Shown in pieces: positions 4,513 through 18,293 of a stretch of 64,000 bases of DNA. The notes beneath the pieces are model-generated. The model was not told where the DNA came from. It saw only the letters and a list, made by a program, of their open reading frames with translations, and did not search any database. Numbering within the stretch: the stretch's first letter is position 1; each line of letters begins with the position of its first letter. The position numbers were made by a program, and so were the translations under genes. This DNA comes from a virus, in the IMG/VR virus record IMGVR_UViG_3300028859_000011, positions 61,547 through 125,546 of that record. One strand, given 5' to 3'.

Positions 4513-4627
4513 ATTTGGTAGGTATAAATAAATATATTATCTTTGTTGATATAAAAATAAACAAAAATATTGAACAATTAATTTGGTAATTAGAAATAAA
4601 TATATTATCTTTGTTGATATAAAAATA
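4511..4627 (+). promoter_or_regulatory. Tandemly duplicated Bacteroidota sigma-A promoter
   Basis: TTTG-N20-TATCTTTG at 4514-4545 and again at 4582-4613; aaataaatatattatctttgttgatataaaaata is repeated. Confidence 0.8.
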
Positions 4628-5918: not shown

Positions 5919-6024
5919 TAAACCTATAATTATCAAGTGCATTATACAATTTACTTGATAATTATAGGTTTATTTAAAAAATATTGAGTTTCCTTTGGTA
6001 ATTCAAAAACTTTCCTTATCTTTG
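5919..6024 (+). terminator. 20-bp perfect inverted repeat followed by a sigma-A promoter (TTTG 5994-5997, TATCTTTG 6017-6024) for clpP
   Basis: Arms 5919-5938 and 5953-5972. Confidence 0.75.
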
Positions 6025-6061: not shown

Positions 6062-6811
6062 ATGCAGAAAAACGATTTCAAAAACTACGCTACTAAGCAT
6101 TTACGTATGAATTCAACAGTGGTAGATAATGCAATAAAATATCAAATTAAGAATTATGGACTAACCCCTATGATATTAGAAGAAAGAAAATTAAATGTTA
6201 CACAATTATCTGTGTTTGATAGATTGCTTTTAGATAGAATTTTATGGGTCTCTGGAGAAGTAGATGATGTTATGTCAGATATTATTCAAGCACAATTGTT
6301 ATATTTGGATAATGCAGAACCTGGAAAGGATATTACAATGCAAATTTCAAGTCCAGGCGGGTCAGTTATACAAGGACTTGGTATCATTGATGTAATGAAC
6401 TGGATTAAGTCTGATGTGTCTACAGTCAATTTAGCAATGTGCGCGTCAATGGGGTCTGTTCTACTTTCTTCTGGTGAAAAAGGTAAACGTTCATCACTAA
6501 TTAATGCTACCGTTATGTTACATCATGTTGCTGCTGGAACTAGTGGTAAAGTAGATGACACTCGTATTAGTCAAATGGAGACTGAAAAATATAATTTTTT
6601 ATTATTCAAGATTCTTTCTCAAAATACTGGAAAGCCGTTTGAAGAAATCCACAATTTTTGTCAAAGAGATAAATGGTTAAATTCAGATCAAGCAGTACAA
6701 TATGGTTTGATCGATACTATTATTGGATTAAAAGATGATAATTCAAATTCAATTACCACTATGATGGATGGATTTAATGATTATTATGATAAATATGTAT
6801 TAGATAAATAA
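6062..6811 (+). CDS. clpP: ATP-dependent Clp protease proteolytic subunit
   Basis: LLDRILWV, IIQAQLLYLD, SPGGSV, catalytic Ser in CASMGS, His in MLHH, RDKWLNSDQAVQYGLID. Confidence 0.96.
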   Translation: MQKNDFKNYATKHLRMNSTVVDNAIKYQIKNYGLTPMILEERKLNVTQLSVFDRLLLDRILWVSGEVDDVMSDIIQAQLLYLDNAEPGKDITMQISSPGGSVIQGLGIIDVMNWIKSDVSTVNLAMCASMGSVLLSSGEKGKRSSLINATVMLHHVAAGTSGKVDDTRISQMETEKYNFLLFKILSQNTGKPFEEIHNFCQRDKWLNSDQAVQYGLIDTIIGLKDDNSNSITTMMDGFNDYYDKYVLDK

Positions 6812-7474: not shown

Positions 7475-8935
7475 TTGAATTTAATGATCAAATCTTATAA
7501 ATTTATCACCAACGCAAATGATATTAAAACAAAACACATTCAGGATAAATTATATCCAGAGTGGCGTAGAGTAGCTGAAGTGTTAATAAATAAACATATG
7601 AATCATTACTATAAATATAATTCAATTTGTATTGATAACTCGCTCTACAAAGACGTTTATACATTTCTAACTGAACGTTATAAAGATGCAATAAATAGAC
7701 AAGTAGTTGGATTGTTTAAATCTAAAGTCAGTAATTTCAAGCGTAAATTCAACAAGATTGTACTATCAAGTAACTTAAGTAACGAAATAAAGAAAGATTT
7801 ATGTTTAGTAAATAAAAGGAATTTATTTTTCATTAATGAAGACATTCATGGTAAAAATCACAAGGTAAATTACGAAACAATTAAACTTGGTCGTTGGATA
7901 TTCAAGAACTTCTTTGGTAAATTACCATCATGCAAAAATATTAACATGGTACTTCAGTATAAAATTGCCGTCATTGAAACACCAACTGGCTTAAATTCTA
8001 ATATAAAATATGTAATTAAATTATCATCAGGAAAAAAAAATATCAAAGGTAAATTTTATTACATTCCTTTACTAAATAATAAATACGCTGACAAATTTGA
8101 AGGTAAACTTAATACTTCTTGTACATTAATATTCAAAGATCATAAATTCAATAGTGTATTGATAACTAAAGAATTAGATATTATTAAACCAGAATTAAGT
8201 AAAGTTAAATTATCGTTTGACATTGGATTAAATATTCTGTTAGCAACAAATAATGGAGAAACCTACGGTAAATGGTACTTGAAAAAGTTAAAGAAATTAG
8301 ATGATCAATTAATGATATTAACTAATCATTTGAAAGAAATTCATGGTAAGTATGTAAAGTTATCTGAGTTTAGTGAATATAATAAATTAGTTAATATGAT
8401 TAGAGATTTCAGTAAAAACGAGATCAATCGGATATTTAATAAAATTTATAAAAAATATAAACCAGAAACCTTAATCATGGAAGATTTAGATTTTAAAGGT
8501 AGTAACATTGGCAAAAAGAATAATCGTTTACTCCATAGATTTGGATTAAGTATTATCAAGAGTAAACTTAATCAATTAAAAATAGATTACGGAGTTAAAA
8601 TTAAATTTATTGATGCAGCTTACTCAAGCCAGACTTGTAGTAAATGTGGATATATAGACAAAAATAATAGAAAATCACAGAAAGAATTTGAATGTCTTTG
8701 CTGTGGTAAAAAAATAAATGCTGATGTTAATGCAGGTAAAACATTATATAATTTCGAAGAACGTTTCGGCGAAAAATTGTTTTACACAGTTAATGACAGG
8801 AATAAGAAAAGAACCCTTTTGATCAATGATTTTATTGACAGTAAGGTATGGACGGATAATGAGAGGCTTATCCAAGCATTAAATAATAATCCTTACAAAA
8901 AAGATTATTATTTAATACTCCGTGAAAAATTATAA
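7475..8935 (+). mobile_element. tnpB: Solo TnpB (IS200/IS605-family RNA-guided nuclease-like)
   Basis: RuvC-I SFDIG, RuvC-II MEDLDF, AAYSSQTCSKCG...CLCCG zinc ribbon, RuvC-III NADVNAG; no tnpA adjacent. Confidence 0.88.
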
Positions 8936-10782: not shown

Positions 10783-10814
10783 TTTGGTAAATAAAATAAT
10801 ATGTATTATCTTTG
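10783..10814 (+). promoter_or_regulatory. Bacteroidota sigma-A promoter
   Basis: TTTG-N20-TATCTTTG. Confidence 0.8.
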
Positions 10815-11817: not shown

Positions 11818-12134
11818 TGAAAAATAAATTATTTAAATCTTTATTGGTTTTTATTCTTTTGATTTTTCTCGGAGTATCACATGAGTTAATCTCACGTAAA
11901 GCATCACAAGATTATTCAGCAGCAGCTGCTCAGCAATTTACTAATGATAATGCATATTATACATTACAGACTCAACATTCAACAATTAATTTTATCGATG
12001 TGGTATTTGTTGCTGCTTCTCTTACTTCTTTAAGTCTATTCTACTTTATTTGGAAAACAAAAAAAGAAGATGAAATACCTAATATAGAAGAATTAAAAGA
12101 AGATGAACTACCTGATATAGAAGAAAAAGTTTAA
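11817..12134 (+). CDS. Two-TM membrane protein, partner of the SPFH gene
   Basis: Two hydrophobic segments; start overlaps the SPFH stop. Confidence 0.7.
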   Translation: MKNKLFKSLLVFILLIFLGVSHELISRKASQDYSAAAAQQFTNDNAYYTLQTQHSTINFIDVVFVAASLTSLSLFYFIWKTKKEDEIPNIEELKEDELPDIEEKV

Positions 12135-12327: not shown

Positions 12328-14362
12328 ATGCAAATAGATTTTAGAAAAAATAAGAATTTTGGTGATCATGGAGACGTAAGATTAATAACTAAATTTTTAT
12401 GGTACCCATTAATTTTAAAAGGTAGAATGATTTGGATGGAAACCGCAACAATTCAACAAATATGTTTTACTAATCCTTCATATTTATATACCAAAACATT
12501 TTGGATTAATGACTGCTTTGTAAAACAATAAATTACAATAAAATATGAAAAGTAAAATACAAATAATTGATAATCAAGAAGTTATTGTTACACATATAAC
12601 AGAAAAAGATTTCAAAAAAGCAATTAGTCTCATAATTAATAGATGTGATACAATTAAAGATATTTTTAATGAAACATCTTGGTTGTTTTCACCTGCTGAA
12701 GATATTAGTCAGCTATTAGTAGTAACTGAAAAAATAACACATATCAAAAACAAAAAATGAGCAAGAGTAAAATTACAAAAGAATTGATAGATAAAGTAAA
12801 AATACTTTATCCTGATTGCGATGTTTTTAAATCAAGAATTAAACATAACTATATTTGTATTCGTAAATTGTTAGGTCAATCAATATACTATAGAGATGAA
12901 AATAGAACATTTGAATATGATAATACAGAAATTGAATATTTATATGTAGCAGAAGCTATATTAGAAATTAATAAACTATAATATGACAACTAAAAAATTA
13001 AATAATAAAACCTTTATTTTTAAAGATTATAAAGATCCAAAATATAAAGAAATTGTATATGATGGTAAAAAATATCAATATCATCAAGTTGAAGATAATT
13101 GTGGTGAAAAAACATATTTTTACTATAATACTACTTATGCTAGTCATCCTAAATATTTAATATTTGGCCCTATAATTATAAAAACAATTCCAAAATTTAT
13201 ATTCCAAATATATGGTCATATTGAATCTGAAATATTTTCTAAAGATGATATAAGAATGAAGATTCATGAAAAAGTAAATATCATAAATAGAAGAAAAGAA
13301 ATAAAAAGAGGAGAAATAATTTAATATAAAAATATATTAATCATGACATCAAAAGATATTGTAAATAAAATTTTATTTAATGATAATAGAATATTTTACC
13401 TTAACGTAATGCTAAATAGTAATAGATTGATTGATAAAGAATATGTTAATTTAATATATCGTAAATTTGAACTCAAAAAAGAAAATAATATACTTTATAA
13501 AAAATTAGAAGAAAATAGATTAAGAATCGAAAAATTGAAAGAATTAAATAATATATCATGAAATTTAAAGATATTGAAAATGAAATTGTATTTTTAGAGA
13601 AAAAAAGTTTATCTTTGGAATGAATACTTTATAATATAAGTTATAATACAATCGAATTCATTGAGATACGGGAAAAATTTGATAAACTAAATATATATTT
13701 AAAAGAAATAAAAGAAAAATTTGAATTAAATAAATTAAGAATTGAAAAATTAAAAGAATTGAATGATATATGATTGATTATAAAAAAGATGTAAAATTAT
13801 CAAATGAATTCAAAACAGTACACGAACAAATGCAAGATAAATTATATAAAAATGTAAGATTACTATGTAACGTCGAAACAAGACAAAAACAAATATACGT
13901 CACTTTATATAATGAAAAATATTTTAATTATGAATATCCTTATTTTGATGATCATGACTTGATATATAAAGTAGATAATGAAGATTTCTATGAAAATTTT
14001 AAAAAAATAAGAAAAATAAAAAGAGATTATAATAATTCTTATAAACCAATAAAGTTTAAAACTGAATTTGAATGCTTAAAATATTTGAAATCTATCGGAA
14101 TTGATGAAGTTGGTCCGAATAATTAATTAAAAATAAAAATATGAAACAAAAAATTTTAGAAATATTAGGTAAGAATCATACTACGCCATGCGTATTCACA
14201 AATAACCAAGAAGTTGAAGCGATTTATACATATAAAAATGATGTATATTGCTTAGAAATGGGAGAAGATTTTCCTTTTGATGATGTTTCTGAAAAAGGAC
14301 AAAAAAAGATTCTTGATGCTATTGTAAATAATGAATATAAAAAAGATAAAACTTTTCAATAA
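12328..14362 (+). CDS. Operon of small hypothetical ORFs (12328-12531, 12545-12760, 12757-12981, 12983-13324, 13343-13561, 13770-14126, 14141-14362)
   Basis: Tightly packed, often ATGA-coupled ORFs; no recognisable motifs. Confidence 0.65.
13558..13773 (+). pseudogene. Paralog of 13343-13561 interrupted by an in-frame TGA
   Basis: MKFKDIENEIVFLEKKSLSLE*ILYN...KLRIEKLKELNDI; stop at 13621-13623; C-terminus matches the neighbour's RLRIEKLKELNNIS. Confidence 0.7.
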
Positions 14363-14366
14363 AAAG

Positions 14367-14398
14367 TTTGGTGAATTGAAAACTTTTCCGTACTTTTG
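14367..14398 (+). promoter_or_regulatory. Bacteroidota sigma-A promoter upstream of the tRNA leader
   Basis: TTTG 14367-14370, N20, TACTTTTG 14391-14398. Confidence 0.75.
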
Positions 14399-14452
14399 TA
14401 CTACATAATAAAAATAGAAAAAAATCATATTTTTTAAAGAATATATACTGAT

Positions 14453-14545
14453 ATGAAAAACTACAATAACATAATGAACTTGCTACTCTTAAACCTATTA
14501 TTACAAAATAATCGGACTGAGAGTACTATGTCATATCTATTGTAA
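14453..14545 (+). CDS. Leu-rich leader peptide (30 aa), putative attenuator peptide; not in ORF track
   Basis: MKNYNNIMNLLLLNLLLQNNRTESTMSYLL*; Leu codons TTG CTA CTC TTA (AAC) CTA TTA TTA ... CTA TTG. Confidence 0.8.
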   Translation: MKNYNNIMNLLLLNLLLQNNRTESTMSYLL

Positions 14546-14579
14546 CAAATAATATAAGCATATTAAAAAGACCTCAGTC
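14515..14579 (+). promoter_or_regulatory. Putative antiterminator helix
   Basis: GACTGAG 14515-14521 is the exact reverse complement of CTCAGTC 14573-14579 in the terminator 5' arm; extendable by 2 bp past a bulge. Confidence 0.65.
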
Positions 14580-14605
14580 ATTTATTTGATTGAGGTTTTT
14601 CTTTT
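14571..14605 (+). terminator. Intrinsic terminator (attenuator) immediately before the first tRNA
   Basis: ACCTCAGTCA-tttatt-TGATTGAGGT followed by TTTTCTTTT. Confidence 0.85.
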
Positions 14606-14615
14606 ATAATAAAAT

Positions 14616-14701
14616 GCTCTGGTGGTGAAACTGGCGAAACACGATACTTTTAAAAAGTATTACATTAAGAAACAATGCGGGTCCGAATCCCGCTCAGAGT
14701 A
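14616..14701 (+). tRNA. trnL: tRNA-Leu(TAA), copy 1
   Basis: Acceptor GCTCTGG/TCAGAGT, anticodon arm ATACT-TTTAAAA-AGTAT, long variable arm, A73. Confidence 0.9.
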
Positions 14702-14709
14702 CAAAAAAT

Positions 14710-14792
14710 GTTCCTGTGATGAAATTGGTAGTACATAAATTTCTTAAAAGAATTTGCCCACTGGCGTGTCGGTTCGAGTCCGACCAGGAATA
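14710..14792 (+). tRNA. trnL: tRNA-Leu(TAA), copy 2
   Basis: Acceptor GTTCCTG/CAGGAAT, AATTT-CTTAAAA-GAATT, variable arm, GGTTCGAGTCC, A73. Confidence 0.92.
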
Positions 14793-14803
14793 CAATAAAA
14801 CAT

Positions 14804-14889
14804 GCTGATGTGGCGGAATGAATACGCGGCAGTCTAAGAAACTGTTTCTGAACAAAGTAAGAATGTGGGTTCAAGTCCCACCATCAGTA
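14804..14889 (+). tRNA. trnL: tRNA-Leu(AAG)
   Basis: Acceptor GCTGATG/CATCAGT, GCAGT-CTAAGAA-ACTGT, long variable arm, GGTTCAAGTCC, A73. Confidence 0.88.
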
Positions 14890-14896
14890 CAATAAT

Positions 14897-14970
14897 GACT
14901 GAGTGATGTAATTGGTAACCATGTCATCCTCAAAAGGTGAATTTTGTGGGTTCGACTCCCATCTCAGTTA
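14897..14970 (+). tRNA. trnL: tRNA with CAA anticodon (Leu) and a short variable loop
   Basis: Acceptor GACTGAG/CTCAGTT, TCATC-CTCAAAA-GGTGA, 5-nt variable loop, GGTTCGACTCC, A73. Confidence 0.85.
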
Positions 14971-14978
14971 CAATACAT

Positions 14979-15068
14979 GTTCCAGTGGCGAAACTTGGTT
15001 GAGACGCGTTAGATTTAGGATCTAATACAGTTAATGACACACTGCGGGTCCAAATCCCGCCTGGAATA
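14979..15068 (+). tRNA. trnL: tRNA-Leu(TAG)
   Basis: Acceptor GTTCCAG/CTGGAAT, TTAGA-TTTAGGA-TCTAA, long variable arm, A73. Confidence 0.92.
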
Positions 15069-15069
15069 C

Positions 15070-15114
15070 AAAGTGTGAGCCAATTTTATTAAAAAAATTG
15101 ACTCACACTTTTTT
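15070..15114 (+). terminator. Terminator closing the tRNA array
   Basis: aaagtgtgagccaatttt ... aaaattgactcacacttt followed by a T run. Confidence 0.8.
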
Positions 15115-15136
15115 ATATATACAATAAAAAAAGTAT

Positions 15137-16075
15137 ATGAATAAATATAATAAAGAAAAATTTGAAGAAGTTATTAAAAAATCATTTTCTTATTCAAGCA
15201 CTTGCAAGAATATTGGATTAGTGCCAGTAGGAGGAAATATTCTCACAGTAAAAAAATATATTAAATTATATAATATAAACATTGATCATTTTACTGGGCA
15301 AGGATGGAATTTTGGAGATAATTATAAGCAAACAAAAAATGCTATACCATTAAATGACATATTAGATGGTTTGCATCCATCATATGGCACAACTCATTTA
15401 AAGAAAAGATTAATTAAAGATAGACTAAAAGAAAATAGATGTGAAGAATGCGGGTTGACAGAATGGAATAATATGCCAATTGCTTTACAATTACATCATA
15501 AAGATGGTGATAGTACAAATCATAAATTTGAAAATTTAAAAATATTATGTCCAAATTGTCACACACAAACAGATACATATGGATCTAAAAATAAAGGAAC
15601 AGAGAAAACATATGATAAGATACAATTATTGGAATCTATTTCCAATTCCAAAAATTACAGTGAAGTCAAAATAAAAATAGGATTAAAAAGAGGAGGTGAT
15701 AATAATGTAATAAAAAATATCATGTTTGAATATGATATAAATTTTAATGACAGTGAAAAAATAAAAAGTATAATTTTAGAAGAAAAAGAATTAATAGAAA
15801 AAGAATTAATAGAAAAAGAAGAAATTCAAAATAAATCAACAAAAAAAATTAAAATTAGAAAAAAATATCCATCAATAAAAAATATTTGCTCATGCGGCAA
15901 AGAAATTCAAACCAGATCAAATCAGTGCAATGAGTGTTATAGATTATCTGAAAGAAAAGTAATGAACAGACCAACTAAAGATGAATTAAGATTAATGATA
16001 TCTGATACAAGTTTAGAAGCTGTTGGTAGAGTTTATGGTGTGACTGGCAATACAGTTAAGAAGTGGCTAAAATAA
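15137..16075 (+). CDS. HNH homing endonuclease
   Basis: CEECG...LQLHHKDGDSTNHKFENLKILCPNCHTQT; C-terminal CSCG..CNEC and HTH (SLEAVGRVYGVTGNTVKKW). Confidence 0.9.
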   Translation: MNKYNKEKFEEVIKKSFSYSSTCKNIGLVPVGGNILTVKKYIKLYNINIDHFTGQGWNFGDNYKQTKNAIPLNDILDGLHPSYGTTHLKKRLIKDRLKENRCEECGLTEWNNMPIALQLHHKDGDSTNHKFENLKILCPNCHTQTDTYGSKNKGTEKTYDKIQLLESISNSKNYSEVKIKIGLKRGGDNNVIKNIMFEYDINFNDSEKIKSIILEEKELIEKELIEKEEIQNKSTKKIKIRKKYPSIKNICSCGKEIQTRSNQCNECYRLSERKVMNRPTKDELRLMISDTSLEAVGRVYGVTGNTVKKWLK

Positions 16076-16089
16076 TGTCTTATATTGAA

Positions 16090-16129
16090 ATGTCTAAATG
16101 AGATGGTTCGACTCCCACCTAAGTTACAA
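16090..16129 (+). pseudogene. Degenerate tRNA 3' half
   Basis: GGTTCGACTCCCACCTAAGTTACAA closely matches the 3' end of the CAA tRNA (GGTTCGACTCCCATCTCAGTTACAA); no 5' half found. Confidence 0.6.
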
Positions 16130-16667
16130 ATTAAATTTCTTTGATGCTATAATTGATTCCATATCAATTATAGAACTTGACCAATACTTCATTGATCCAT
16201 CATCAGTTTTAACAATTCCTGGTCCGTCGTGAGGTCCAGGATTCATTTTTTTAACTTCATAATCAATTGAAGCCCATCTAAAATTTTCAATTCTTTCTTT
16301 CTTTATTACTTTACACAATTCAGTATTATTCCAACCAAGTAAGCAATAATCTCCAATAGATGGTAGATTTTCCAGATCTTCAATTTTTTTAGAATAGCTT
16401 TTTATTTGTTCACGTTTAACTAAAAAATTGTTATTCCACAATTCATATTTATCAAATTTAACGTTATAGTATTCTGTGTGTTTCTATAGATATTATTTTA
16501 CCTATTCTATATTTATAGTCAGTATCGTTTTTTCTAGGGGTAAAATATTCAGGTATTTTAGATTCATAGAAATCTTCGTTGAGTCTGACGTAATCATTTA
16601 TTTCTGGTTCTGAATCACGTGTAAATTCTTTTGTATTGTAGAATTCAATTTTTTTAATATGTTTCAT
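16124..16667 (-). pseudogene. Tagged protein split by a frameshift (MKHIKKIE ... SKKFNL)
   Basis: One frameshift in an ACACACA tract near 16473-16481 joins track ORFs 16464-16667 and 16124-16441 via EYYNVKFDKYELWNN. Confidence 0.65.
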
Positions 16668-17036
16668 ATGTTATATTTTTTTGCATGTATTTTTAGTTTG
16701 AATATCGTCATATATATCATCAAATGATATAGCTAAAAAATCATCAACTGATAGCATATTTTGCATGTAATCTATTCCATCACCCCAACCTCTTGTAGAA
16801 ACAGAACTGATAGATATTGAATATTCTGAATATTTTGAAACCTCAACAATTATTGCATAATAGCCTGGAGTTTTAACATTCCTTCTTATAGTATGTTCGT
16901 CATTATAACTTAGATTATATGTTTTGAGTTTATCAATAAGTTGTTCTGTTTGTTCGTCTGTTATGCCTTCAATATTTATTGCAAATCTGAATTTATTTTT
17001 AGAACTTTCATTAATGAATTGATTATATTTTTTCAT
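16664..17036 (-). CDS. MKKYNQFINE-family protein; C-terminal tag lies in a shifted frame
   Basis: Paralog of 17422-17856; the alternative frame ends IHAKKYNI* overlapping the next ATG. Confidence 0.7.
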
Positions 17037-17425
17037 AGGTTAAATTTATTTGCGTCATTTTTTAATTTAAAATAATTTTCAACTCCATCTAATCCAACCA
17101 ACAAAAATTCTTCTAATGATATTAAATTTACTTTTACTGAACTACCGAAATCTATACCTGAAATTTTAATATAATTAGTATTATTTATATCATAATACAA
17201 TGATATCTCCTATGAATATTTTGTTGATATTAAAAATTCTTCATTCCAAGAATATAATTTAACATGTTTTTTTATTTCATTTATTGCGGATTTTTTCTTA
17301 TCAATTGTATTATTTGTACTTTTATCAATAACAAATGTAATATTAGGCTCTGATTCAGGTATCATATCTTTACTATCAATTAATATGTAATTATTTTCAT
17401 TAATGAATTGGTTATATTTTTTCAT
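17033..17425 (-). pseudogene. MKKYNQFINE-family protein with an in-frame TAG
   Basis: TAG at 17210-17212; the frame stays open to ...LEEFLLVGLDGVENYFKLKNDANKFNL*, homologous to the neighbours' ends. Confidence 0.75.
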
Positions 17426-17856
17426 ATATTAAATTTATTTGCATCTTTTTTCATGTTGATAATTTCTTCTTTTGCTTTGACAAGTTCTTCAGCTCCTTCA
17501 AATCCAACTTTAAAGAATTCATCTAACGATAATATACATTCCATATAAGTATATCCTGCTCCCCAACGTGGTGTTGTAACTGTTGATATATCTATTCTAC
17601 AACGATTAAAATAATCAGTAATCTCGAATCCTAAAGCCCAAGGAAAGAAAGAATTACTTCCAAAAATATCCTTTTTGTATCTAAGACTCAATAATTCTGA
17701 TTTTCCAAATTCTGAATATTCATCATAATTTACAGATTTTTTGTAAATCATATCAAATAATTTATCAATTTGATCATCTGTGATATTTGTTATATCAACA
17801 GCAAATCTGAATTTATCAGAAATACTTTCATTGATGAATTGTTTATATTTTTTCAT
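17422..17856 (-). CDS. MKKYKQFINE...DANKFNI tagged protein
   Basis: ORF in a tandem paralog array. Confidence 0.8.
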   Translation of the reverse strand: MKKYKQFINESISDKFRFAVDITNITDDQIDKLFDMIYKKSVNYDEYSEFGKSELLSLRYKKDIFGSNSFFPWALGFEITDYFNRCRIDISTVTTPRWGAGYTYMECILSLDEFFKVGFEGAEELVKAKEEIINMKKDANKFNI

Positions 17857-18293
17857 AGGTTAAATTTATTTGCATCTTTCTTAATTTTATAAAGTGTTTC
17901 AACTCCTTCTAATCCAATTATAAGGAAATTATCTAATGAAATTATAAGGTTATTCTCACCTCTCATCTCATCAGATCTCAGTTTTAAAAAATCTATTGTA
18001 TCTCTTGGTATTGCAGAATTGCCCCAACTTTCATATACTTGAATATACCATACCCAGTAATTATTTTTATCTACTGAGAAACGTTTCCAATCAGTATCAT
18101 TATCTCTAATTAATAAACTTTTTATATTGTGAGTTTCTAATGTCACATATTTTCTAAATTCATCAAATGCTTCTTGTTGTCTTTTTTCATCTGCATCTTC
18201 CAATGATATGAAAAATTTAAAATCCATATTATTGGATGCATAATTTTCTCCATATGCTCTATTTTCGTTAATAAATTCTTTATATTTTTTCAT
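17853..18293 (-). CDS. MKKYKEFINE...DANKFNL tagged protein
   Basis: ORF in a tandem paralog array. Confidence 0.8.
   Translation of the reverse strand: MKKYKEFINENRAYGENYASNNMDFKFFISLEDADEKRQQEAFDEFRKYVTLETHNIKSLLIRDNDTDWKRFSVDKNNYWVWYIQVYESWGNSAIPRDTIDFLKLRSDEMRGENNLIISLDNFLIIGLEGVETLYKIKKDANKFNL

What the first reader, a model, noticed from the sequence alone, without database searches (positions are those of the whole stretch)
14367..15068. Leucine-sensing leader-peptide attenuator in front of an all-Leu phage tRNA array
Seen in sequence, in this order: a Bacteroidota sigma-A promoter (14367-14398); a 30-codon ORF missed by the track (14453-14545, MKNYNNIMNLLLLNLLLQNNRTESTMSYLL) with 7 Leu in 8 consecutive codons and 9 in total; a strong intrinsic terminator (14571-14605); and, 10 nt later, five tRNAs that are all Leu. 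The leader's Leu codons (TTG, CTA, CTC, TTA) are those read by the downstream anticodons (CAA, TAG, AAG, TAA x2). GACTGAG at 14515-14521, just 3' of the Leu run, is the exact complement of CTCAGTC in the terminator's 5' arm, so antiterminator and terminator are mutually exclusive. Established: this is the architecture of ribosome-stalling attenuators such as leu, ilv, his, trp and pheST. Inference: stalling on Leu codons frees the antiterminator, so the phage makes its own tRNA-Leu set only when charged host tRNA-Leu falls, for example after starvation or cleavage by an anti-phage anticodon nuclease. That would be an on-demand tRNA backup. I know this logic only for biosynthetic and synthetase operons, not tRNA arrays, but could not search the literature.
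Basis: partly seen in the sequence, partly recalled or inferred. Interest (0 to 1): 0.96.

Follow-up and report, generated by a model that had tools for sequence, protein, structure and literature searches.

The report
Leader-peptide attenuator gating phage tRNA-Leu genes
A giant uncultured phage puts its five leucine tRNA genes behind a tiny leucine-rich test gene wired to a switchable transcription stop, so it probably makes these tRNAs only when ribosomes read leucine codons slowly; I found no published account of such control for tRNA genes.

Summary

- In two 636-642 kb huge phages (LR756502, LR756504) and in IMG/VR relatives, 17 further tRNA clusters carry the same module. Each leader is rich in the amino acids of its own downstream tRNAs.
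- Shuffling the tRNA sets among leaders never reached the observed match (150 cognate residues against 58±11; 0 of 100,000).
- The enrichment is specific to the ORF frame: 37% against 11-14% in the other two frames.
- Fourteen of 18 leaders have a segment before the stop codon that is significantly complementary to the terminator's 5' arm (window z -4.0).
- Constrained folds of the window reproduce the trp-type 1:2, 2:3 and 3:4 logic.
- The leader's Leu codons depart from phage usage (P 0.003). Its first four are one codon for each of the four anticodon species.

No RNA or ribosome data exist. The suggested trigger by an anticodon nuclease is speculation. Six literature searches found no description of leader-peptide control of tRNA genes. 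Earlier unchecked notes of this scan report the same kind of control on other phage DNA.

The parts
14367..14398 (+). Bacteroidota-type promoter: -33 TTTG at 14367-14370 and -7 TACTTTTG at 14391-14398. The predicted transcription start is near 14404-14406.
   Evidence: Exact match to TTTG-N18-21-TAnnTTTG; 10 matches in the window against 4.3±2.2 in shuffles. Similarity to the orthologous contig G001 and to LR756502 begins exactly at this element. The assignment rests on consensus only; no start site has been mapped.
14440..14448 (+). Conserved motif AATATATAC, 4 nt before the leader ATG. Its role is unknown; it could be a phage-specific promoter or a translation-initiation element.
   Evidence: The motif or a near variant lies upstream of most of the 18 leaders. 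It is not enriched in the window as a whole: 3 matches against 4.3 expected.
14453..14545 (+). Leader ORF of 30 codons, ending in TAA at 14543-14545.
   Evidence: The frame is kept in four IMG/VR orthologs. It has the same M-K/R-N/T start and the same length range (17-36 codons) as the 17 other leaders.
14480..14503 (+). Sensor codons: TTG CTA CTC TTA AAC CTA TTA TTA, 7 Leu in 8 codons. Helix strand 1 is 14484-14491.
   Evidence: Codon choice departs from phage usage (TTA 67%, CTC 1.1%, CTA 6%), multinomial P 0.003. The first four codons are one for each anticodon species, P 0.018. Strand 1 pairs with 14518-14525 in the minimum-energy fold.
14514..14528 (+). Strand 2, with core GACUGAG at 14515-14521. 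It pairs either with strand 1 or with the terminator's 5' arm (antiterminator).
   Evidence: Constrained folds and the duplex test against shuffles, z -4.0, p 0.003. The core is unchanged in the orthologs.
14567..14605 (+). Intrinsic terminator (attenuator): 5' arm (strand 3) 14567-14580, loop 14581-14586, 3' arm (strand 4) 14587-14600, T-rich tract to 14605.
   Evidence: -17.6 kcal/mol. In the orthologs the 3' arm changes a G·U pair to G-C.
14616..14702 (+). tRNA-Leu(UAA), long variable arm, A73.
   Evidence: (48.1 bits).
14710..14793 (+). tRNA-Leu(UAA), second copy.
   Evidence: (46.5 bits).
14804..14890 (+). tRNA-Leu(AAG).
   Evidence: (52.7 bits).
14897..14971 (+). tRNA with anticodon CAA (Leu by anticodon), 75 nt, with a short variable arm.
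   Evidence: (53.7 bits). The Leu identity is inferred from the anticodon and A73 only.
14979..15069 (+). tRNA-Leu(UAG).
   Evidence: (47.4 bits).
15074..15107 (+). Terminator-like hairpin closing the tRNA array.
   Evidence: The weak Rfam 'mir-3156' match is this hairpin.

Best explanation
This is a ribosome-mediated (leader-peptide) transcription attenuator that controls a five-gene tRNA-Leu operon of a huge phage, probably one that infects Bacteroidota.

Proposed sequence of events:
1. Transcription starts at the promoter at 14367-14398.
2. A ribosome translates the 30-codon leader while RNA polymerase moves toward the terminator.
3. If charged tRNA-Leu is plentiful, the ribosome runs to the stop codon at 14543 and covers strand 2 (14514-28). 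Strands 3 and 4 then form the terminator, and the tRNA genes are not transcribed.
4. With no ribosome at all, strand 1 pairs with strand 2, and the result is again termination.
5. If any Leu isoacceptor is scarce, the ribosome stalls within 14480-14503 and covers strand 1. Strand 2 is left free to pair with the terminator's 5' arm. The terminator cannot form, and polymerase reads into the array.

The result would be a negative-feedback supply of tRNA-Leu matched to demand.

Shown here: the sequence anatomy, the statistics and the comparative pattern. Inferred: translation of the leader, transcription-translation coupling, and the direction and size of the response.
For: 1. Anatomy of the window. 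In order: promoter, ORF with the Leu run, terminator 21 nt after the stop codon, and the first tRNA 15 nt after the stem.

2. Alternative folds. Free RNA, or RNA with a ribosome at the stop codon, gives 1:2 plus the terminator. With a ribosome A-site anywhere from 14480 to 14498, the nascent RNA gives the 2:3 helix (-13.6 kcal/mol).

3. The same module elsewhere. It precedes 17 other tRNA clusters, and each leader mirrors its tRNAs:
- L001:3565-3618 (seven Gln in a row) precedes four tRNA-Gln.
- L002:774-863 (LSLCLSLSLSL) precedes Leu, Leu, Ser, Cys, Ser.
- L010:2571-2630:- (IAMIIRMRIIR) precedes Arg, Ile, Met.
- L015:3714-3776:- (KKKK) precedes three tRNA-Lys.
- L004:2949-3041 (Glu/Tyr) precedes Glu, Tyr, Glu, Tyr, Glu.
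- L061:3664-3774:-, in the window's own lineage (Thr/Gly/Ala/Pro/Val/Arg-rich), precedes Arg, Pro, Ala, Gly, Gly, Val, Val, Thr, Thr, Thr, Arg.

4. Permutation of tRNA sets among leaders: 150 cognate residues of 459 observed, against 58.4±10.6 in permutations, maximum 111, and 0 of 100,000 reaching the observed value.

5. Frame specificity: 185 of 495 cognate codons in the ORF frame, against 67 and 54 in the other two frames.

6. Geometry: the gap from stop codon to terminator is 17-33 nt in all 18 leaders.

7. Antiterminator complementarity: p < 0.05 in 14 of 18 leaders, Stouffer z -15.4, although the terminator sequences differ between leaders. Strand 2 starts upstream of the stop codon in all 18 leaders; in three of them (Q_W01, RS_W01, RIM_W02) it extends past or across the stop.

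8. Codon choice: the Leu codons are atypical for the phage and cover all four anticodon species.

9. Orthologs: L021, L047, L050 and L051 keep the frame and the 7-bp 2:3 core. The TTA-to-TCA change turns a U·G pair of helix 1:2 into C-G.
Against: - There is no experimental evidence of any kind. The two metatranscriptome runs cover only a 38-nt shared 5'-UTR motif, carried on contigs from other loci.
- At equilibrium the terminator (-17.6 kcal/mol) beats the antiterminator (-13.6), so the switch must be kinetic. From memory, the same is true of trp.
- The ortholog has one Leu codon fewer (Leu-Leu-Leu-Ser instead of four Leu), so the run is not strictly invariant.
- A TATAAT at 14605-14610 lies 6 nt before the tRNA 5' end and could give some attenuator-independent transcription.
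- Transcription-translation coupling in the unknown host is assumed.
- Four of 18 leaders did not reach p < 0.05 in the antiterminator test.
- Stalling caused by leucine starvation itself would not be relieved by more tRNA.
Confidence: 0.8

Rival explanations
1. Coincidence. The hairpin simply ends upstream transcription, the small ORF is a chance frame in 23% G+C DNA, and the tRNAs are made from their own promoter (TATAAT at 14605-14610).
For: AT-rich DNA yields many short ORFs and many sigma-70-like hexamers: 20 found against 23 expected. A second Leu run exists by chance at 12004. The TATAAT lies 6 nt before the tRNA 5' end.
Against: The promoter lies between the upstream gene and the ORF, and the conserved block starts at that promoter. 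The same ORF-terminator-tRNA layout with matching amino acids recurs 17 times (0 of 100,000 permutations), is frame-specific, and carries antiterminators. In 11 of 18 junctions only 5-16 nt separate the terminator from the tRNA. From my own knowledge, TATAAT is not the Bacteroidota sigma-A motif.
Confidence: 0.03
2. The leader is translated and gates the terminator, but it reports general translation activity rather than shortage of the cognate tRNA. Alternatively, the peptides themselves act as small proteins.
For: All leaders share an M-K/R-N/T start and an Asn-Ile motif near codons 6-8. This could reflect a peptide function or simply efficient initiation. Any slowdown of the ribosome would favour the 2:3 helix.
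Against: The variable middle of each leader tracks the isotypes of its own tRNAs. The window's leader uses rare Leu codons that match each anticodon species. A general sensor or a functional peptide would not need either feature.
Confidence: 0.07
3. An RNA-only sensor: uncharged tRNA binds the leader RNA directly, in the manner of a T-box, without translation.
For: T-box leaders also pair a terminator/antiterminator switch with a codon that specifies the tRNA, and they control translation-related genes.
Against: No T-box or any other riboswitch family matched 13000-17000 at E ≤ 1. The cognate triplets sit in an ATG-initiated frame, with the stop codon at a fixed distance from the terminator, and they are 3-fold enriched in that frame only. 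Runs of 4-9 cognate codons are typical of ribosome sensing, whereas a T-box uses a single specifier.
Confidence: 0.03
4. The direction is reversed, or the output differs. For example, stalling might expose the transcript to Rho or to nucleases, so that the leader reduces tRNA output under stress.
For: Uncoupled ribosomes can expose RNA to Rho. The host's factors are unknown.
Against: The position of strand 2 fits stall-induced readthrough: it lies after the sensor codons, begins before the stop codon, and is complementary to the terminator's 5' arm. This holds in the window and in most paralogous leaders.
Confidence: 0.04

Closest known systems
Leader-peptide attenuators of enterobacterial amino-acid operons (leuL, hisL, trpL, pheL, thrL, and the multivalent ilvL/ivbL)
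   Same: A short ORF with a run of regulatory codons; mutually exclusive 1:2, 2:3 and 3:4 helices; an intrinsic terminator before the first structural gene; a stop codon placed so that a ribosome which finishes the leader masks strand 2. The multivalent relatives here (for example Leu/Ser/Cys or Ile/Met/Arg leaders) resemble ilvL and thrL.
   Different: The controlled genes are tRNA genes, not biosynthetic enzymes, so the product sensed (charged tRNA) is the direct product of the operon. The element is in a phage and is used many times per genome. No sequence similarity was found: no Rfam Leu_leader or other leader family matched at E ≤ 1, apart from a sub-threshold rnk_leader hit.
pheM leader of the E. 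coli pheST (phenylalanyl-tRNA synthetase) operon
   Same: Ribosome-stalling attenuation applied to a gene of the translation apparatus, sensing the cognate charged tRNA.
   Different: It controls a synthetase, not tRNAs, and it is a single cellular operon rather than a genome-wide phage scheme. The comparison rests on my own knowledge and was not tested here.
T-box riboswitches
   Same: Control by tRNA charging status through a terminator/antiterminator switch upstream of translation-related genes.
   Different: A T-box binds tRNA directly with one specifier codon and a conserved T-box sequence, and needs no translation. None of these features is present here.
Cysteine-rich leaderless short ORFs acting as Cys-responsive attenuators in mycobacteria (bioRxiv 10.1101/834739, listed)
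   Same: Short ORFs with runs of one amino acid that tune downstream operon expression according to supply.
   Different: The targets there are cysteine-metabolism genes, and the mechanism and host differ. I read only the title and abstract.

Membership tests
Ribosome-mediated leader-peptide transcription attenuator (mechanistic class) | A short ORF with a start codon in the 5' leader, between the promoter and the first structural gene | tested here: met
   ORF 14453-14545, downstream of the promoter at 14367-14398 and upstream of the tRNA at 14616.
Ribosome-mediated leader-peptide transcription attenuator (mechanistic class) | Clustered regulatory codons cognate to the product of the controlled genes | tested here: met
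   7 Leu in 8 codons before five tRNA-Leu genes. Across 17 junctions, 0 of 100,000 permutations reached the observed match. The enrichment is frame-specific.
Ribosome-mediated leader-peptide transcription attenuator (mechanistic class) | An intrinsic terminator between the leader ORF and the structural genes | tested here: met
   A 14-bp stem plus T tract at 14567-14605, -17.6 kcal/mol.
Ribosome-mediated leader-peptide transcription attenuator (mechanistic class) | An antiterminator helix that shares a strand with the terminator, and an anti-antiterminator that overlaps the regulatory codons | tested here: met
   2:3 is 14515-21 with 14574-80; 1:2 is 14484-91 with 14518-25. Against shuffles: z -4.0 in the window, and p < 0.05 in 14 of 18 leaders. 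This is prediction only.
Ribosome-mediated leader-peptide transcription attenuator (mechanistic class) | A stop codon placed so that a ribosome finishing the leader masks strand 2 but not the terminator | tested here: met
   The stop codon at 14543-45 lies 15-18 nt after strand 2 and 21 nt before the stem. The gap is 17-33 nt in all 18 leaders.
Ribosome-mediated leader-peptide transcription attenuator (mechanistic class) | The leader is translated, and readthrough rises when the cognate charged tRNA is limiting | not testable with these tools
   The phage is uncultured. The RNA runs held only a 38-nt shared motif.
Rfam leader families (Leu_leader and other amino-acid operon leaders) | A match to the family covariance model at or above its gathering score | tested here: not met
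   A cmscan of 13000-17000 at E ≤ 1 gave only tRNAs, a sub-threshold rnk_leader hit (27.7 bits against 50) and a spurious miRNA hairpin. The element works like these families but is not a member of any curated one.
T-box riboswitch | Stem I with a specifier loop and the conserved T-box antiterminator sequence (Rfam model) | tested here: not met
   No T-box match at E ≤ 1.
Bacteroidota sigma-A promoter | A -33 TTTG and a -7 TAnnTTTG about 19-21 nt apart | tested here: met
   Exact match at 14367-14398; the pattern is over-represented in the window. No start site has been mapped.

The most novel reading that the evidence does not exclude
Huge phages of this clade run a genome-wide, codon-resolved homeostat for tRNA supply. 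Every tRNA block is metered by its own leader, which carries about one codon for each anticodon in the block. In the window these are TTG, CTA, CTC and TTA for CAA, UAG, AAG and UAA. Shortage of any single isoacceptor would then switch on that block alone. The shortage could come from the phage's extreme AT-rich codon demand, from loss of host tRNA, or from host tRNA-cleaving defence. That would make the arrays an inducible backup rather than constitutive cargo.
Probability: 0.4. Interest if true: 0.92.

Novelty: new variant of a known kind. Interest (0 to 1): 0.88.

Why it matters
Phage tRNA genes are usually treated as constitutive cargo that fixes codon-usage mismatch or replaces cleaved host tRNAs. 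If these leaders work as predicted, three things follow.

- Huge phages measure decoding speed codon by codon and make each tRNA set on demand. That extends the classical attenuation principle from amino-acid supply to tRNA supply. Here the sensed molecule is the direct product of the controlled genes.
- The idea becomes testable: one can ask when, and why, phages need their own tRNAs.
- The leaders offer a way to predict which tRNAs belong to one transcription unit, and to predict the identity of odd tRNAs such as the short-armed CAA tRNA, from leader composition.

The leaders are also compact, modular, codon-specific sensors of possible use in synthetic biology.

Tried and rejected
- Expression evidence. 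Peat and permafrost runs were found and four were laid. The two RNA runs cover only 14409-14447, on contigs that continue into unrelated sequence. This is a shared 5'-UTR motif and says nothing about expression or termination at this locus.
- Rfam. The rnk_leader hit (27.7 bits, gathering score 50, E 0.09) and the mir-3156 hits are generic hairpins.
- Sigma-70 promoter scan. It gave no excess over shuffles (20 against 23), so it says nothing for or against an internal promoter.
- Decayed tRNA. GACTGAG...CTCAGTC (14515-14580) might have been the acceptor stem of a decayed tRNA, because the CAA tRNA at 14897 starts with the same heptamer. There is no tRNA-like match there at E ≤ 1 and no T-arm, and other leaders use unrelated strand 2/3 sequences. 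I rejected this reading.
- IMG/VR motif scans. The promoter pattern gave 43 loci, of which 4 were true orthologs. The 5'-UTR/ATG pattern gave 118 loci, of which one was a new leader (L160, a Pro/Gln/Asp leader before Asp, Asp, Pro, Ser ... Gln, Gln).
- blastn against GenBank phages found only the LR756502 promoter/leader start and scattered tRNA matches.
- The junction in L007 proved to be the 3' end of a longer gene, not a leader. I kept it in the permutation test as a conservative control.
- The first version of the antiterminator test cut off strand 2 in three leaders because of where I placed the stall. I repeated it with the stall at the first sensor codon.
- Six literature searches found no paper on leader-peptide control of tRNA genes. 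A seventh listed only classical attenuator papers. The paper describing the huge phages contains neither 'attenuat' nor 'leader'.
Full report
**What is there**

The window is the 3' half of a 125.5-kb IMG/VR virus record that CheckV rates 18% complete. It has 22.7% G+C and is found in peat metagenomes.

Between a 73-codon ORF that ends at 14362 and an HNH-like gene that starts at 15137 lies a compact unit:
- a promoter that fits the Bacteroidota TTTG-N20-TAnnTTTG form exactly (14367-14398);
- a 30-codon ORF (14453-14545) whose codons 10-17 are Leu-Leu-Leu-Leu-Asn-Leu-Leu-Leu;
- a 14-bp hairpin with a T tract (14567-14605);
- five tRNA genes with anticodons UAA, UAA, AAG, CAA and UAG (14616-15069);
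- a closing hairpin (15074-15107).

These are the only tRNAs in the whole 125-kb record.

**Is it more than chance?**

In all six frames of the 64 kb there are only two stretches with at least 7 Leu in 8 codons. The other is an off-frame of a gene.

The RNA at 14440-14615 folds far better than shuffles (-40.2 kcal/mol, z -6.5).

The leader's nine Leu codons are TTG ×2, CTA ×3, CTC ×1 and TTA ×3. In the phage's long ORFs, TTA makes up 67% of Leu codons, CTA 6% and CTC 1.1% (multinomial P 0.003). The first four Leu codons are one for each of the four anticodon species in the array (P 0.018).

**The switch**

Folding with a ribosome footprint masked gives three states.
- Free RNA, or a ribosome at the stop codon: 14484-91 pairs with 14518-25 (helix 1:2), and the terminator 3:4 forms (-17.6 kcal/mol).
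- A-site anywhere from 14480 to 14498: the nascent RNA, before the 3' arm has emerged, pairs GACUGAG (14515-21) with CUCAGUC (14574-80), closing a -13.6 kcal/mol structure that occupies the terminator's 5' arm.
- Once the whole terminator is transcribed it is the more stable structure, so the choice must be kinetic. From memory, the same is true of the trp leader.

Pairing of the post-sensor segment with the 5' arm is -13.5 kcal/mol, against -5.5±2.0 in 1000 dinucleotide shuffles.

**Comparative test**

A blastn hit to the promoter and the start of the leader led to LR756502. LR756502 (642 kb) and LR756504 (636 kb) match in size two of the four largest complete genomes (634, 636, 642 and 735 kb) reported by Al-Shayeb et al. 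2020. That paper places all its largest genomes in the Mahaphage clade and predicts Bacteroidetes hosts for those over 634 kb (PMC7162821). I did not check the accession numbers against the paper.

I fetched all their tRNA clusters: 50 and 45 Rfam tRNA matches. Sixteen terminator-to-tRNA junctions in these two genomes have a 17-35-codon ORF that ends 19-33 nt before the terminator. The middle of each ORF is written in the amino acids of the tRNAs that follow:
- seven consecutive Gln before four tRNA-Gln (L001:3565-3618);
- alternating Leu/Ser with Cys before Leu, Leu, Ser, Cys, Ser (L002:774-863);
- His/Phe/Lys before Phe, His, Phe, Lys, Lys, Lys (L003:2931-3017);
- Ser/Arg before Arg, Ser, Arg (L003:5421-5495);
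- Glu/Tyr before Glu, Tyr, Glu, Tyr, Glu (L004:2949-3041);
- Ile/Met/Arg before Arg, Ile, Met (L010:2571-2630:-);
- Ile/Ala/Val/Glu/Gly before Glu, Ala, Ile, Val, Gly, Glu (L011:2995-3099:-);
- four Lys before three tRNA-Lys (L015:3714-3776:-);
- Asn/Leu/Thr/Val before an Asn, Asn, Leu, Val, Ile, Thr... block (L005:2159-2263).

IMG/VR added more:
- four orthologs of the window's cassette (L021, L047, L050, L051);
- a second cassette in that same lineage (L061:3664-3774:-, rich in Thr/Gly/Ala/Pro/Val/Arg, before Arg, Pro, Ala, Gly, Gly, Val, Val, Thr, Thr, Thr, Arg);
- an Asn/Tyr/Asp cassette (L062:8297-8389);
- a Pro/Gln/Asp cassette (L160, ORF starting at 6420).

**Statistics on the set**

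- With tRNA sets permuted among leaders, cognate residues number 58.4±10.6 (maximum 111), against 150 observed; 0 of 100,000 permutations reached the observed value. The one junction that is really the end of a longer gene was kept in.
- Cognate codons are 37% of the ORF frame but 13.5% and 10.9% of the two other frames. This argues for reading by a ribosome rather than a compositional or RNA-only effect.
- Although the terminators differ in sequence, 14 of 18 leaders carry a segment significantly complementary to their own terminator's 5' arm (Stouffer z -15.4). That segment starts after the sensor codons and, in all 18 leaders, before the stop codon; in three it runs past or across the stop. 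This is covariation across paralogous cassettes.

**Orthologs of the window's cassette**

Similarity to G001 begins exactly at the -33 element; upstream of it the two contigs are unrelated. The promoter therefore belongs to the cassette.

Within the leader there are few changes:
- TTA to TCA in the run (Leu to Ser), which also turns a U·G pair of helix 1:2 into C-G;
- one synonymous CAA to CAG;
- two changes just 3' of the 7-bp antiterminator core;
- a G·U to G-C change in the terminator.

The frame, the other eight Leu codons and the 2:3 core are kept. The sequences are too close to each other for real covariation statistics.

**Mechanism and its status**

The best reading is a trp/leu-type attenuator whose output is tRNA: slow decoding of Leu codons leads to antitermination, which leads to more tRNA-Leu. 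Anatomy, statistics and comparative pattern are shown. Translation of the leader, coupling to polymerase, and the response itself are inferred.

The physiological trigger is open. It could be demand from the phage's extreme AT-rich codon usage (Leu is 7.5% of codons, two-thirds of them TTA), decay of host tRNA, or tRNA-cleaving defence. I have no evidence that discriminates between these.

A start at the TATAAT 6 nt before the first tRNA cannot be excluded. It is not a Bacteroidota-type promoter, and the equivalent position in the other cassettes holds only the terminator tail.

**Comparison with known systems and novelty**

The element works like the classical leader-peptide attenuators, including the multivalent ilv and thr type, and like the pheST leader in sensing a cognate charged tRNA. 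It is not a member of any curated Rfam leader family, and it is not a T-box.

Searches of about 8.4 million full texts found no description of leader-peptide attenuation of tRNA genes. The paper describing the huge phages mentions neither attenuation nor leaders.

Earlier notes of this scan report the same kind of cassette in other phage genomes. Those are unchecked AI notes. I reached the pattern independently before reading them, and they neither raise nor lower my scores.

I rate this a new variant of a known kind: a known mechanism applied to a new class of controlled gene with a new regulatory logic.

Noticed in passing
window 14897-14971; also L002 2504-2664 and L005 3644-3802: The tRNA with anticodon CAA is 75 nt long with a short variable arm, so it is class I-like, although bacterial tRNA-Leu normally has a long arm. 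It has A73. LR756504 and LR756502 also carry short 'Leu' tRNAs of 74-76 nt. Their Leu identity rests on the anticodon and on membership of Leu-leader cassettes.
   Followed up: partly
window 14440-14448, and upstream of most leaders in L001-L015, L061 and L062: A conserved AATATATAC-like motif lies 4-30 nt before the leader ATG in nearly all cassettes, yet it is not enriched in the window overall (3 matches against 4.3 expected). It could be a phage-specific promoter that gives near-leaderless transcripts, or an initiation element.
   Followed up: partly
window 14409-14447: This 38-nt 5'-UTR segment recurs, with 2-5 mismatches over 38-45 aligned nt, on other DNA and RNA contigs of peat and permafrost runs with different flanks. 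That suggests a promoter/UTR module reused by several transcription units in related phages.
   Followed up: partly
window 14515-14521 / 14574-14580 and 14897-14903 / 14964-14970: The antiterminator pair GACTGAG/CTCAGTC is nearly the same as the acceptor stem of the CAA tRNA (GACTGAG/CTCAGTT). It is probably coincidence; no tRNA-like fold is detected in the leader.
   Followed up: partly
window 7475-8935 (+): A 486-aa ORF with a Cas12f1-like TNB domain (Pfam PF07282, E 4.6e-14), that is, a TnpB/Cas12f-like nuclease gene in the phage.
   Followed up: no
window 16671-18293 (-): Four tandem paralogous ORFs (121, 71, 144 and 146 aa) share an MKKY-QFINE start, and most share a KDANKFN end. This is a locally expanded gene family of unknown function.
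   Followed up: no
L062 11799-11871; L012 (reverse strand) 2381-2456; L003, L004, L010, L015: Related phages carry a CUA-anticodon (amber suppressor-type) tRNA, tRNAs that ARAGORN calls with 2- or 4-base anticodons, and unusually long Lys, Glu, Thr and Gln tRNAs (85-89 nt). This hints at recoding or at introns or extra arms.
   Followed up: no
L007 (reverse strand) 2269-2358, LR756502: The ORF that ends just before one terminator-tRNA junction looks, from memory, like the C-terminus of an elongation factor G-like protein. It is not a leader and served as an internal negative control.
   Followed up: no
window 4514-4613, 5994-6024, 10783-10814: Several further TTTGGTA...TATCTTTG promoter-like sites of the same type as the one before the leader. 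These are probably a class of host-polymerase promoters of the phage.
   Followed up: no
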